Assembly: GCF_006345805.1 (NCBI RefSeq) | Contig: NC_043006.1 | Span: 16,120,001 to 16,184,000, forward strand | Reading direction: 5' to 3' | DNA: 64,000 bases | From: Octopus sinensis | Taxonomy: Eukaryota | Part shown: piece after piece, positions 8,476-38,262 of the stretch | Position numbering within the stretch: position 1 is the first letter of the stretch | Layout of the letters: each line of letters opens with the position of its first letter | Notes under the pieces: model-generated | What the model was told of the DNA's origin: nothing | Databases searched by the model: none | The model's input: only the letters and a program-made list of their open reading frames with translations | Translations under genes and position numbers: made by a program

Positions 8476-8560
8476 CTTCTACATACGTTTCCAGGGATGC
8501 ACTCCAAAAATGTCCGACAGGATAAATTATGGTCAGCAATGTATCAATCTTATCAGGAAG
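8476..8560 (-). ncRNA. Degenerate minimal (type I) hammerhead-like motif in a putative Penelope-like remnant
   Basis: Minus strand reads cttc-CTGATAA-[long stem II]-GAAAC-gtat-GTA-gaag. Stem I is cttc/gaag; the core differs from CUGANGA by one base. Confidence 0.45.
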
Positions 8561-8812
8561 GATATAAATAACAAAATCATCAAACAAGGATTTTCTATTT
8601 CTGTTAACATGTCTGTCTGATAAGTTTGTTATGTGTGTGTGTGTGTGTGTGTGTGTGTGTGTGTGTGTGTGTGTGTGTGTGTACATATATATATTTGTTC
8701 GACTAATTCCTTGTAAGCAGTGCCCCTGCATAACGGCAGCCCCATGACTGAAGCATATCAAGCAAAAATTAGATACTTTTGGGTCACTATACACATTACC
8801 TTTTCTGCATTA

Positions 8813-9258
8813 GTTACTCTTTTACTTGTTTCAGTCATTTGACTGCGGCTATGCTGAAGCACCGCCTTTAGTCGAGCAACTCGACCCCGGGACTTATTCT
8901 TTTTGTAAGCCCAGTACTTATTCTATCGGTCTCTTTTTGCTGAACCGCTAAGTGACGGGGACGTAAACACACCAGCATCGGTTGTCAAGCAATGCTAGGG
9001 GAACAAACACAGACACACAAACACACACACATCACACACATACATACATATATATATATATATATATATATATATATATATATATACATATATACGACAG
9101 GCTTCTTTCAGTTTCCGTCTACCAAATCCACTCACAAGGCATTGGTCGGCCCGGGGCTATAGCAGAAGACACTTGCCCAAGATGCCACGCAGTGAGACTG
9201 AACCCGGAACCATGTGGTTGGTTAGCAAGCTATTTACCACACAGCCACTCCTGCGCCT
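8813..9258 (-). mobile_element. SINE family A, full length
   Basis: Minus strand: tRNA-like head ggcgcaggagtggctgtgtggt..ggttccgggttcag, CORE-like cttgggcaagt, internal (TA)n(TG)n, tail ..cagtcaaatgactgaaacaagtaaaaga. Confidence 0.92.
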
Positions 9259-10287
9259 GTAATAACATCATAAGTAACCCACCAAATATTAATTTAATAT
9301 CTGAGAAATTAGATAACAAACCAAACCTCTTCAAATTTTTGATTACTTCAAAAATTAAATAAATTACACAAAGAGAGTATTTCATTAGAATATGAGTTAG
9401 TTTGTGAGTATCAAGTACATATGTCTATCAAACAGGATTTTGAAAATATTCTCTAGTTAGACTGTCTGTGATGCTAATCTCCACGGTTGTCAGTGCTTAA
9501 AGTAAGAAATATCTATATATATATATATTCTTTTATAAATCTATTCCCGTCACTCACAACAAACATCCTATGACAAGTATTTTGTTTATTTTGCTTTTCC
9601 GTTATATTTATAGATTTTCTGGATTATGTTTTTCTTTCTTTTTCTTTTTTATTTATTCATGTTTTAGGGATAATCTTGGAGTTAACGCAGAGCGCATTTA
9701 TGCATCCATAAAACTAAATATGAATGCAAACGCAAACGATATAGCAAAAAGAATTTCAAATATGAAAAACAATGAATAATGAAATGGAAGAATATCAAAA
9801 GATAGCATCGATTACCCCACATTTTAAATGTTATTCGTGTCTACATAAACACTTTTCTCCTAAAATACCTAAACGCTTTCATGACTGGAAGGATATCATA
9901 ACTATAAAATACGATGGACAAGCGAGCATAATGAAAATGAAGACAAGAAGTAGGAAAAACAAAGTGATTCATAATAGTTGTAGAATGTGATCAACGAACC
10001 ATAACATCTAATCGGCCGCTTTCTCAATCTCGTTCATGGTTCCAATATTTTCTCTTTCCTCGGTAACCTTATACAATTTTCTCTCTCTTTTGCTCTCCCT
10101 CAATACATCTGTATTATGTATAAACATACATGCATATATACATACATATATATTCAGCGTTTATACCTCCTGACATACATATAGTTCTCATCCTGGCACA
10201 AATAACTGCTTGTTAGAAATTAATACACTTCAAAAAATACTGTATTTGCTAAACTCTTGCAAGAAAAGGGTGAATTCGCTGACGTCC

Positions 10288-10692
10288 TCTTTACTCTTTT
10301 ACTTTTTTACTCTTTTACTTGTTTCAGTCATTTGACTGCGGCCATGCTGGAGCACCGCCTTTAGTCGAGAAAATCGACCCCGGGACTTATTCTTTGTAAG
10401 CCCAGTACTTATTCTATCGGTCTCTTTTGCCGAACCGCTAAGTGACAGGGACGTAAACACACCAGCATCGGTTGTCAAGCAATGCTAGGGGGACAAACAC
10501 ACACACACACACACACACATATATATATATACATATATACGACAGGCTTCTTTCAGTTTCCGTCTACCAAATCCACTTACAAGGCATTGGTCGGCCCGGG
10601 GCTATAGCAGAAGACACTTGCCCAAGATGCCACGCAGTGGGACTGAATCCGGAACCATGTGGCTGGTTAGCAAGCTACTTACCACACTGCCA
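10288..10692 (-). mobile_element. SINE family A, near full length
   Basis: Near-identical to 8813-9258, with a (gtaaaaga)n tail. Confidence 0.92.
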
Positions 10693-10949
10693 CTATATAA
10701 AGCAGAAGTACAGAGCGATTGGTAATTAATAAATGAATCACAAATAGACTCACACATAATATAATACACTTATGTAGATATAAATACAAACTGACCAGGA
10801 ATATACCTACTGGCACACACTCACTCATACACGCGTGCGCGCACAAATTCTTGGCATACACTTCCTCATAGTTAAAACGGATGTGAGCTAACGAAGGTTA
10901 TTTTCTAACTCTTATTCTCTTGTCTTGCACTTAAGATTATACACACATT

Positions 10950-34993: not shown

Positions 34994-36728
34994 GGTGTGA
35001 GAGGAAAAGTTAAGTCATAGTTAATTTAGATATGTTACAAAACAGAGAGTGAGGTGGAGGAAAGAAAATAGATGCAAGATATGTATGGGTATTGAATTTG
35101 TAAATCCGTTTTATAGGCATAATGGTATATATGCAATATTCCAATATCCTTTGAGTAAAAGTCCGACAGGGTTTAATATGAGTCCTTCCAAATATAGAGT
35201 TTGTAAGCAGTGTAAGATTCTCTTAAACTTGGTCATTGACAGTAGGGAATTTATATAGAGTGTAGCAGAGTCAAGGTTTGTATTTAAAATTACCTATATA
35301 TAAATATATATATATATATATATATATATATATATATTATATATATATATATATATATATATATATATATATGTGTTGTGTGTGGTGTGTGTGTGTGTGT
35401 GTATAGCCAAGTTGCGAAGATAATCTGGTACTCGACTGAGGAAAGAAAACTTCGAATGACCCGTCCTTGTTTTCTTTGTATCGTCTATATGGATGTTTTA
35501 TTGTCCCATTTTTGTATCACCTAACTGTCCGGATATTTTGCGTTCTTGTCCCTATATATATATATATATATATATATATATATATATATATATATATATA
35601 CGACGAACTTCCACACGTTTTCTGTCTGTCAAAATTAATAGCAGGGTAATTGTAGGTCCGGGATCATAGTATGAAACACTCGCCCAGGGCAGTGGAACTG
35701 AAATCTAGACCACATGATTGCAGGGTTTTAAGTTCTATTACCACTACTACTCCTACCACTACCACCAACAATAATAAAGGTGATCATAAAGGTGATGAAG
35801 ATAAATGAAATGTAAAAATCATGTGATTGGGACGCTAGCTTCTTATCATACAGCAATACTGCGCTTCTGTGTGTGTGTGTGCGTGCGCAAGTGTGTTAGT
35901 GCGCGTGTGTGTATGTGTGTGGGATATATATGTGTGCGTCATTTTATGTGTGCGTTTGTGTACTGTAACTCTTTACCACGATCCCGTTCTTTATTTCTAC
36001 TTCCACAATAATGTCTTTTCTCTTGCGTTTGAGCCCCCCCCCCCGCCACCCCCGCTGAAAATAAGGAATAATTTAAGATATAATTATACATAGCTGAAAG
36101 CTTGTTAATAACTTTTATTTAATTTTCAGCTTGAATTTTTATTAAATATTTTGAAGATAACTTTCATTTTTTATTTTATTTTTACTTTTACCCCATTTTT
36201 CTTTTTTTAAGACTTTTCTCTCTCCGCTTTCTGCTTCGGTTACACATCGATACTCTGTAAGTTAATTATCTTTCATTTCATATATTATTACTTCCGGAAA
36301 TTTACATTGATTTGGGGCCGAATAGAGGAATAGAATTAAAGGTTATTGATATTTCGTTTTCTATAATATTGACCTTATCTCAATAAAAGTTAATCTTTCT
36401 CGACTTTCGACCTTTCACGCAAAACCACATTCTAATCATTCTCCAAAGTTTTCCATAAAACACTTTAATTTCTAATTCACTTTGCAGATCGTATACACAA
36501 TCTACGAAGTATTGTTCTTCTGTCTCTCTTTTCTTATAAGTTCTTCCATTCGCTACCAACAGCATTATTTCATGTGAATTCAATTGAATTAGATTGTGTG
36601 AACGGGTTTCATGTCCTGTAACATCAAGTTTTGTTGCTGAGAATATATTTCGACACAGGGCATCAGATTTACGGTCCTTATTTTTTATACATTTCACAGT
36701 AATGTAACGTAGCAACAGATAGATAGAT

Positions 36729-36945
36729 ATGTTTCTCTATTGGCCACACAGGGCTGAACACAGAGGGTACAAAATACAAAGTAGAGCTTCTCTTTTTGGG
36801 AAGAAGAAAGGAAAAAAGAAAAAAAAAGTGGGTCGAATTCCGATCAAAAGGGATCGTGGAAAAAAAGGGGGTCGATCAATAGGGATCGTGGATCACAGAA
36901 ATGTCAATGTAAAAAAGGAAAACAGATAAGGTTTATACGTGCATA
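36729..36945 (-). mobile_element. 3' UTR fragment of the Tx1/L1-like LINE
   Basis: Homologous to 32501-32740, with a short (ATCT)3 tail. Confidence 0.85.
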
Positions 36946-37135
36946 AGTGCAAATGGAGCAAGCGACTGTAGTTCTTAGAGCCATTTGACGTCTATTTCTA
37001 GCATGTGACGCTATTCGTTACTGCCCTCATTATTATAATTATATTTATATAATTATATATACTTGCATTAATTATTACCTATATGGTTCATTACATGCTG
37101 TCTACTTTTATCCTAAATTATTAAATATACATTTA

Positions 37136-38002
37136 CAGGGTGTGATTGGTAAATTGTCGCCATTTTATATTTTTAATTCGTACATGCGCATTGTTCCTTT
37201 TCTCTTTTGTCGACTACACACCATAGTAGGGTCAGCTGGGCACCATATGTGAGAAAAACAGCACCATGACGCAATTCACTCTGACAGAAATTTGAAAACG
37301 ACATTTTGCATTGCTTGGCATTCGCGCCGGAAGCTCCAATATGAAGATTTCAGAGTGTTTGAGTGTCAATCTGAGGATAGTGCAACCTAAGAACATGTAC
37401 CGAGTGTGATAAAAATCAAACATCCAGTCAACATCGTGGTGTTTGAAGCGATCACTAGGGATGGCAACGTTATGCTTCCATTCATCATCCAACACGGAGG
37501 CGTACATGAAGTGCCTGGAGGAGGTAGTACTGTCCTGGGTCAAGAGGGTGGCTGCTGGAAGACCTTATGTCTGGCAACAGGACTCTGCACCATGCCACAC
37601 AAGCAGGAGAACCCAGTCATGGCTGTCAGACTATTTCTGCGACCACATCACCTCCAACATCTGGTCACCTAACTCCACGGACTGTAAGCCCCTTGGTTAT
37701 TATGTTTTGGGCACATTGAGCGAGAGACCAACATAACTCCTTGTAACACCAATGATGAACTGAAGACAAGGATTATGGCAGAATTGACCAACTTAAACAA
37801 GGAGAACGTCCTGAAGAGTTGCAGGAAATTCCGAAGTCATCTGGAGGTCATAGTTGAAGCCAATGGCGATTTTATTGAATATATTTACTCTTTAGTATAT
37901 CAAGATATTTTTATGTAATTTTCGTAAATAATCTTTAAATGAGATGTCAGTGCTATTTTAATTCATTGCGTAATTAGACGACAGTTTACTCACCGCACCC
38001 TG
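37136..38002 (+). mobile_element. Internally deleted maT-type (DD37D) Tc1/mariner transposon
   Basis: TA-flanked TIRs cagggtgtgattggtaaattgtcg / cgacagtttactcaccgcaccctg. In YVWQQDSAPCH..WSPNSTDCKPLGY there are 37 residues between the second D and the mutated third position. Confidence 0.9.
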
Positions 38003-38064
38003 TATGTATATATATATATATATATAATATATATAATATATATAATATATAAAGTTAATAAACA

Positions 38065-38262
38065 TGAAACCACAAAGAGACAAACGAGAAAACACGACGC
38101 GAGGGCGTGGAACAAGTATAGTATTATTGGACGCTCAGGAAAGAAGGAAAGAAGGAGGTTTTACGTTTCTCTCGAGCTCTTCGTCAGAAACATAGGAAAA
38201 AGAAAGATACAAGAAGAGAAGACGGAGGGAAAAAATCGCCACCACGCACGCTCGGTCACATT
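38065..38262 (-). mobile_element. Second copy of the ~190-bp hammerhead-bearing repeat
   Basis: Homologous to 10950-11140. The motif gttt-CTGACGA-agagctcgaga-GAAAC-GTA-aaac lies at 38158-38191. Confidence 0.75.

What the first reader, a model, noticed from the sequence alone, without database searches (positions are those of the whole stretch)
8476..38191. Multiple unrelated minimal hammerhead-ribozyme motifs, all on the minus strand
Seen: CUGANGA..GAAAC..GUH cores with closing stem I at 8476-8560, 11037-11071, 34942-34993 and 38158-38191, an eroded one at 30384-30437, and a decayed plus-strand relative near 46583-46618. Stem III loops are palindromic or near-palindromic (ACGT, AC-AGCT-GT, AC-GTAT-GT). 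Established: Penelope-like elements carry minimal type I hammerheads with palindromic stem III that are thought to cleave as dimers. One motif here sits directly behind a PLE endonuclease C-terminus. Inference: at least four distinct ribozyme-bearing PLE or retrozyme-like families occur in 64 kb, so this may be a large, poorly catalogued ribozyme repertoire. Several copies have core mutations and are probably dead.
Basis: partly seen in the sequence, partly recalled or inferred. Interest (0 to 1): 0.72.

Follow-up and report, generated by a model that had tools for sequence, protein, structure and literature searches.

The report
Hammerhead tails of five Penelope families
The six motifs are worn tail pieces of five common jumping-gene families that carry a small hammerhead RNA, a pairing already in print; one family has a normally fixed core letter changed in thousands of copies and likely cuts weakly or not at all, while short copies of another start at the predicted cut point, a likely trace of cutting in living cells.

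Summary
All six motifs are at the stated coordinates. They are 5'-truncated 3' ends of five Penelope-like retrotransposon (PLE) families. Longer copies elsewhere in the genome join each family to a GIY-YIG endonuclease remnant: three Hydra-type (8476, 30384, 34942) and two Neptune-type (11037/38158 one family; 46583). None is a retrozyme. Density is ordinary: three of the families give 40 copies in 800 kb of evenly spaced samples (3.2 expected per 64 kb, 4 seen). The minus-strand excess (5 of 6) is chance. PLE minimal hammerheads, also in an octopus Hydra element, are published. Two corrections add interest. (1) Two 'core mutations' are family-wide: U4C at 34942, and A6U at 46583 (17,056 exact U6 copies against 214 A6, with positions 7 and 17 free). 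(2) Short copies of the 11037/38158 family start at or just after the predicted cut (32 of 36 loci); the A6U family shows no such step (4 of 30, narrower range). Cleavage is untested. This scan noted variant-core PLE hammerheads before, on other pieces of this genome and in other genomes.

The parts
8323..8586 (-). Family A: 3' end of a Hydra-type PLE, ending in (TA)n
   Evidence: longer copies L191/L184/L192 carry a CxCX5C linker and endonuclease remnant collinear with this tail
8476..8560 (-). Family A hammerhead; family core CUGAUGA, long helix II, helix III ACAUAUGU; this copy has G8A, a damaged helix II and a broken palindrome; H17 at 8480
10939..11143 (-). Family B: short copy of a Neptune-type PLE end, starting 103 nt before the cut
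11037..11071 (-). Family B hammerhead; intact CUGACGA core, extra A, 4-bp helix II (G-U at its base here), loopless ACGU helix III, H17=U at 11041
30607..30802 (-). C-terminal end of a GIY-YIG endonuclease (family D, Hydra-type), frameshifted
30375..30825 (-). Family D: 3' end of a Hydra-type PLE
30384..30437 (-). Family D hammerhead; family helix III ACUA-U-UAGU; this copy lost 3 nt there and has stem I changes
34864..35302 (-). Family C: 3' end of a Hydra-type PLE between TA/CA microsatellites
34942..34993 (-). Family C hammerhead; family-wide U4C core, A-A mismatch at the base of helix II, helix III ACAGCUGU; H17 at 34946
38031..38272 (-). Family B: second short copy, starting 110 nt before the cut right after (TA)n
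38158..38191 (-). Family B hammerhead; core intact, helix II broken in this copy; H17 at 38162
46519..46735 (+). Family E: short copy of a Neptune-type PLE end between (TA)n arrays, starting 96 nt before the cut
46583..46618 (+). Family E hammerhead; family-wide A6U core; this copy has helix II and helix III damaged; H17 at 46614

Best explanation
The six motifs are hammerhead-shaped sequences in the 3' end repeats (pLTRs) of five Penelope-like retrotransposon families, left here as 5'-truncated, likely inert copies; in the parent elements the motif likely cuts the RNA weakly as a dimer paired through the palindromic helix III. Shown: family membership, link to a GIY-YIG ORF, architecture, damage in 5 of the 6 window copies, insertion next to TA/CA microsatellites. 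Inferred: transcripts start about 100-110 nt before the cut in families B and E (copy 5' ends pile up there); a minority of family B RNA is cut, and the 3' product is also copied into the genome (second pile of 5' ends at the cut); uncut RNA is the main template, so cutting is not needed for insertion, which lets families with U4C (C, part of B) or A6U (E) cores spread. In family E the fold is still kept by selection, with cutting likely much slower.
For: Each motif is a dispersed repeat with a fixed 3' end and variable 5' end. B: RT + CxxC linker + CCHH-type GIY-YIG, then a 1.7-kb CA-rich UTR, then the hammerhead in L171, L172, L173; the RT finds 252 public proteins at E<=0.001, many with RVT_1 and some with GIY-YIG. 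E: endonuclease remnant about 0.6 kb upstream in L109, L113, L121, matching the same proteins at E~1e-11. A, C, D: endonuclease without Cys pair between the GIY and YIG halves, CxCX5C linker complete in A (L192), one Cys lost in the C and D copies seen; C scores GIY-YIG in Pfam (E 3.7e-4, under the cut-off) and 0.96 in the Atlas. Family majority lines restore stems and perfect palindromes. B and E have no helix III loop and cannot fold as monomers; self-duplexes are 4 bp (B, E), 8 bp (A, C), 4+4 bp (D). Family D's helix III equals that listed for Penelope-1_HM. 5' ends of B next to (TA)5: 32 of 36 loci at 0 to +14, 4 at -14 to -1, p=1.3e-5; direct junctions only 18 against 3, p=0.003. 11 of 18 B copies found without aiming at B start at -110 to -100. 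Frangieh 2024: hammerhead mutants do not affect insertion in vitro.
Against: No cleavage was measured. The 5'-end counts were read by eye from the first 100 rows of 932 (B) and 337 (E); T-rich sequence after the B cut could favour junctions with TA repeats; E could be seen only to +3, and the B-E contrast over the shared range is p=0.025, or 0.14 if two ambiguous E junctions are moved. About half of the unselected B copies have U4C (5 of 9), so the footprint cannot be assigned to the canonical core. Within family A only 1 of 23 predicted pairs has a two-sided change and RNAalifold does not return the hammerhead fold. Frangieh 2024 saw no RNA-seq reads ending at the cut in Anolis. No full-length intact element was recovered, and no RT tree was built.
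Confidence: 0.85

Rival explanations
1. The hammerheads of the variant-core families (E above all) are catalytically dead; the helices are kept for another job, such as RNA dimerisation, RT binding or promoter function in the pLTR.
For: In a full mutational scan all single mutants of the CUGA turn had low activity (Roberts 2023); natural A6C cut slowly (Perreault 2011). E shows no 5'-end step at the cut (4 of 30 loci, p=0.55) yet is the most abundant family (22 copies in 800 kb). Insertion does not need cutting in vitro.
Against: In E the letters that vary between source lineages are the two that a working hammerhead leaves free: position 7 (U52, A22, C16, G10 in the first 100 rows) and H17 (A43, U6, C5, G1 of 55); other non-CpG columns average 0.97 majority frequency against 0.84 downstream. 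G8, G12, A13, A14 stay fixed.
Confidence: 0.4
2. The motifs belong to non-autonomous retrozyme-like or SINE-like elements rather than to protein-coding PLEs.
For: Most B and E copies are short (about 200-250 nt) with a preferred 5' start; a 535-bp perfect tandem with a minimal hammerhead exists elsewhere in the genome.
Against: All five families run collinearly into GIY-YIG coding remnants in longer copies; window copies are single, not tandem 150-400-nt repeats; helix I is 4-5 bp, unlike retrozyme hammerheads. The short copies may still be made from short pLTR transcripts, which is part of the main reading.
Confidence: 0.06
3. The minus-strand excess reflects purging of sense-strand ribozymes from a plus-strand host transcript, or host use of these motifs.
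For: 5 of 6 on minus; the one plus copy has the A6U core.
Against: p=0.22; 5 of 6 copies are damaged; no host exon was identified (ORFs scanned gave only transposon domains); the density is genome-typical.
Confidence: 0.04

Closest known systems
Minimal hammerheads (min-HHR) of metazoan PLEs, Cervera and De la Pena 2014 (PMC4209133; read parts 1-2 of 4, search of supplement file 2; file 1 not searchable)
   Same: Type I, 4-5-bp helix I, loopless or palindromic helix III, extra nucleotide after A9 (B, C, E), thousands of single truncated copies, several families per genome, weak dimer cleavage proposed.
   Different: Core variant reported there is U3-A8; family-wide A6U and U4C are not in the parts read. 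Counts there are 2,000-9,000 per genome by descriptor; here about 54,000-71,000 by a looser descriptor (extrapolated).
Hydra-clade PLE hammerheads, Craig et al. 2021 (bioRxiv passages and section 11; PMC8557442 supplement part 2 of 59)
   Same: C-terminal GIY-YIG without CCHH, CxCX5C linker, (TA)n targets, hammerhead near the 3' end with 3-4-bp palindromic helix III and often a mismatch at the base of helix II; Hydra-1_Obim from an octopus is listed.
   Different: Families A, C, D differ in sequence from the listed Hydra-1_Obim motif; all Hydra cores in that table are CUGANGA, whereas C has CCGAUGA; A has a helix II loop of about 38 nt; UTRs up to 1.2-1.6 kb.
Poseidon_Ac (PAc) hammerhead, Frangieh et al. 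2024 (PMC11167929; passages)
   Same: pLTR hammerhead with ACGU helix III; uncut RNA is the main template; AT-rich targets.
   Different: No ends at the cut site were seen in Anolis RNA-seq; here genomic 5' ends of family B step up at the cut.
Natural core-variant hammerheads, Perreault et al. 2011 (PMC3088659; section 8 and passages)
   Same: U4C (viroid) and A6C (phage) keep low activity.
   Different: A6U occurs 0 times in that text; those are single ribozymes, not the core of a repeat family with more than 17,000 exact copies.
Non-LTR retrozymes, Cervera and De la Pena 2020 (PMC7229834; passages)
   Same: Type I hammerhead, palindromic helix III, animal genomes.
   Different: Tandem non-coding units of about 300 bp with canonical helix sizes; not what is in this window.

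Membership tests
PLE minimal hammerhead | Type I topology with a 4-5-bp helix I | tested here: met
   Family majority lines
PLE minimal hammerhead | Core CUGANGA / GAAA / UH | tested here: met
   Met by families A, B (U4 subfamily) and D
PLE minimal hammerhead | Core CUGANGA in families C and E | tested here: not met
   C: CCG 16, CTG 6, CCA 2, TCG 1 of 25 incl. sister families. E: 17,056 U6 against 214 A6
PLE minimal hammerhead | Palindromic helix III | tested here: met
   ACGU (B, E), ACAUAUGU (A), ACAGCUGU (C), ACUA-U-UAGU (D)
PLE minimal hammerhead | G10.1-C11.1 pair, extra nucleotide after A9 | tested here: inconclusive
   Both in B and E; G-C without extra base in A; A-U in D; A-A mismatch in C
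PLE minimal hammerhead | Lies in the end repeat behind an RT/GIY-YIG ORF | tested here: met
   a complete pLTR-ORF-pLTR unit was not recovered
PLE minimal hammerhead | Self-cleavage as a dimer | not testable with these tools
   Only the indirect 5'-end footprint for B
Hydra-clade PLE (A, C, D) | C-terminal GIY-YIG lacking the CCHH cysteines | tested here: met
   L192/L196, L080, L088
Hydra-clade PLE (A, C, D) | CxCX5C linker | tested here: inconclusive
   Complete in A (L192); one Cys replaced in the decayed C (L061/L177) and D (L088, L096) copies seen
Hydra-clade PLE (A, C, D) | Insertion at (TA)n | tested here: met
   3' ends run into TA or CA/TA arrays in window and loci; not counted formally
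Hydra-clade PLE (A, C, D) | DKT motif and placement in an RT tree | not tested
   No RT contiguous with A, C or D was recovered
Neptune-clade PLE (B, E) | CX2-5CxxC linker plus CCHH-type GIY-YIG | tested here: met
   B: L173, L171. E: CCHH-type region only, in L109; linker not reached
Neptune-clade PLE (B, E) | Placement in an RT tree (Neptune versus Nematis) | not tested
   No labelled reference set on hand; 'Neptune-type' rests on motifs described by Craig 2021
Non-LTR retrozyme | Non-coding tandem units of about 300 bp with canonical hammerhead | tested here: not met
   Single copies that join coding remnants

The most novel reading that the evidence does not exclude
This genome holds a natural experiment on what the PLE hammerhead does: sister Neptune-type families, one leaving a genomic record of in vivo cleavage (copies starting at the cut) and one, the most abundant, built on an A6U core that is kept under hammerhead-type selection (positions 7 and 17 free, U6 fixed in four organisms), i.e. 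a protein-assisted or deliberately slowed ribozyme with a changed U-turn.
Probability: 0.35. Interest if true: 0.62.

Novelty: new variant of a known kind. Interest (0 to 1): 0.38.

Why it matters
Whether PLE hammerheads cut in living cells, and what for, is open: Cervera 2014 and Craig 2021 call the role unclear, and Frangieh 2024 found cutting dispensable in vitro. Copy 5' ends give a cheap genomic read-out of cutting, and families with canonical, U4C and A6U cores side by side let activity be compared with success. Descriptor searches that demand CUGANGA miss the most abundant family here. The finding as written (several hammerheads in 64 kb, one strand) is ordinary for this genome.

Tried and rejected
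Rfam scan: no hammerhead among the 150 rows shown. Strand bias: rejected. Special density: rejected. 47103-47141(+): old repeat whose relatives do not keep stem I or the core in the majority line; not counted as a hammerhead. 51181-51253(+): descriptor hit with a 2-bp helix II, taken as chance. Protein search with the family D endonuclease piece among longer proteins: 36 candidates, none scored. PDB search with the family B RT: nothing at useful E. Expression: no RNA holder listed; the runs laid are contigs and cannot show ends, so no verdict on expression or in vivo cutting. A separate canonical-core E lineage: the 15 A6 copies fetched fall in the flank-defined subfamilies of U6 copies, though 8 of 15 are G7, so a small A6 lineage is not excluded; these 15 were dropped before the tallies. 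Within-family covariation (family A only, 22 of 27 rows): uninformative. Lunse 2017 and Arkhipova 2017 could not be read, so core variants described there are unseen.
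Full report
Observation. The window is AT-rich, microsatellite-rich animal DNA in a 2.72-Gb genome, probably an octopus (inference; an earlier scan note uses that label; not pursued). All six motifs are at the stated places. Rfam showed no hammerhead in the 150 rows listed of 235.

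Families. DNA searches of the own genome show that each motif is one copy of a dispersed repeat (40 best candidates scored each, 20-30 loci kept). 11037 and 38158 are one family (B). Majority lines: A, CUUC-CUGAUGA-long helix II-GAAACAUAUGU-A-GAAG; B, GUUU-CUGACGA-A-GAGC(UCC)GCUC-GAAACGU-U-AAAC; C, GUCU-CCGAUGA-A-9-bp helix-A-GAAACAGCUGU-A-AGAC; D, GUGC-CUGAUGA-helix II-GAAACUAUUAGU-A-GCAC; E, CUUU-CUGUUGA-A-GAGC(GUAG)GCUC-GAAACGU-A-AAAG. B and E differ by a swapped end pair of stem I (G-C against C-G). Copies that keep core, helix III and stem I: A 5 of 27, B 22 of 32, C 17 of 28, D 2 of 28, E 3 of 21. In the window, A has G8A and a broken palindrome, 38158 a broken helix II, D a 3-nt loss in helix III, E damaged helices II and III, C two changes in helix II; only 11037 keeps a canonical core with all helices able to pair.

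Link to PLE proteins. Copies share a fixed 3' end about 100-160 nt past the motif and vary at the 5' end. Longer copies reach coding remnants. B: RT, CxxC linker and CCHH-type GIY-YIG, then a CA-rich UTR and the hammerhead, in L171 and L173, and the endonuclease end in L172; the RT piece finds 252 public proteins among 1582 candidates, with RVT_1, PF26215 and in some GIY-YIG. E: endonuclease end in L109, L113, L121. A: L191, L184, L192, L196. C: L080, L061, L064, L063. D: L088, L096 and the window. By the motifs in Craig 2021, A, C, D are Hydra-type and B, E Neptune-type; no RT tree was made.

Density and strand. In 80 evenly spaced 10-kb stretches, profile searches found B 10 (3 cross-hits to E dropped from 13 rows), C-like 8 (sister families and two halves of one inverted pair included), E 22, A 0, D 0, and 0 in reversed sequence. 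That is 50 per Mb, about 136,000 genome-wide (97,000-185,000 if Poisson), 3.2 expected in 64 kb against 4 seen. A structure descriptor found 21 motifs against 0 reversed, 6 of them in one tandem, and 91 against 0 in 665 kb of targeted loci. About 14 further motif types appear in those lists by eye, mostly once and not tied to ORFs. So the repertoire is large, and this window is average. Strand: 5 of 6, p=0.22.

Variant cores. Exact genome counts for family E: 17,056 with U6, 214 with A6, controls 0. Position 7 takes all four letters (U52, A22, C16, G10 of the first 100 rows, counted by eye). Among 56 copies not picked for A6: position 6 U50, C4, gap 2; H17 A43, U6, C5, G1, gap 1. In the 21 copies from the even sample the other non-CpG hammerhead columns average 0.97 majority frequency against 0.84 downstream and 0.75 upstream (columns are not independent, flanks are T-rich and align less well, and positions 7 and 17 were set aside by design). 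Contigs of four runs, from four coded organisms, show no other letter at 3% or more at position 6, three other letters at position 7, and A>U at H17. U4C is the majority in C (16 of 25) and a subfamily in B (14 of 53; 5 of 9 unselected). Published data predict low activity: all single mutants of the CUGA turn were weak in a mutational scan; natural A6C cut slowly and U4C supports viroid infectivity.

Footprint of cutting. Prompted by scan note e1-8659544, I looked at 5' junctions next to (TA)5. Family B: 36 loci in the first 100 of 932 rows; 32 start at 0 to +14 and 4 at -14 to -1 (p=1.3e-5; direct junctions 18 against 3, p=0.003). Family E: 30 loci in the first 100 of 337 rows; 26 start at -26 to -3 and 4 at +1 to +2 (p=0.55; 6 and p=0.18 if two ambiguous junctions are moved); the pattern sees only to +3. 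Among 18 B copies found without aiming at B, 11 start at -110 to -100, just inside TCATTC at -112 (resemblance to an initiator element is recalled, not tested), and 3 start just after the cut. Many E copies start near -100. Three of the C-like loci found without aiming also start at 0 to +16 (few). I read the two piles as template 5' ends: a transcription start and the cut. TA microhomology is not excluded.

Mechanism. Shown: architecture and inability of B and E to form helix III as monomers. Established: such motifs cut weakly as dimers (Cervera 2014; review PMC6765202 passages, for Lunse 2017), and in PAc cutting is protein-assisted and not needed for insertion in vitro. Inferred: pLTR transcripts are copied mostly uncut, a fraction of B RNA is cut, and variant cores slow cutting without stopping spread.

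Novelty. The pairing of PLEs and minimal hammerheads is known, with an octopus Hydra element in Craig 2021 File S2. Paper searches showed no family-wide A6U core; one search listed two papers, one with 0 occurrences of A6U and one on twister ribozymes seen only in the listing. The O. vulgaris repeat paper (PMC13282606, passages) has 0 occurrences of 'hammerhead'. Lunse 2017, Arkhipova 2017 and file 1 of the Cervera 2014 supplement were not seen and may hold such variants. The scan has noted the same kind of variant cores before.

Verdict. Real, correctly recognised class, ordinary for this genome; modest added value from the variant cores and the 5'-end footprint. Interest 0.38.

Noticed in passing
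L208:2615-5580 (G000:C1, 135.00 Mb): 535-bp unit, 100% identical copies, about two in one orientation and four in the other, between TA arrays, each with a canonical minimal hammerhead (CUGACGA, helix III ACAAUUGU, GUC site). Looks like a very young non-coding PLE-derived or retrozyme-like tandem, a good natural dimer substrate; an assembly artefact is not excluded.
   Followed up: partly
window 62540-62579 (-): Hammerhead-like motif with CUGAAAA core and 5-bp stem I; one 74% relative in L143 has the same core. Possibly an old family.
   Followed up: partly
window 47099-47230 (+): Old repeat (about 75% identity between copies) with CUGAUGA...GAAAC but no conserved stem I.
   Followed up: partly
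window 6665-6762: Inverted pair of the last 84 nt of the family D tail, without the hammerhead.
   Followed up: no
L034 and L039, 50-620 nt before the family A core: GTAAGT donor-like and TTTTATAG acceptor-like sites bracket about 570 nt of low-complexity sequence: a possible pLTR intron as in Penelope.
   Followed up: no
families B and E, about 25 nt after the cut: Both keep a (Y)GAGCGT block complementary to the 3' strand of helix II plus G12; it could form a competing helix. Folding of two copies did not favour it.
   Followed up: partly
L174, L175, L093, L082, L163, L229: Frequent inverted pairs of 5'-truncated copies; in L163 both arms of a family C pair start at 0 and +2 of the cut.
   Followed up: partly
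window 1986-2399 (-), 37413-37736, 58040-58402, 59866-60531; 52467-53249 (+); 33043-33500 (-): Mariner-type transposase remnants (HTH_48) and LINE-like ORF remnants (by eye).
   Followed up: no
window 23605-24419, 47331-47695, 26138-26443: Tandem copies of 184-bp and 157-bp SINE-like units.
   Followed up: no
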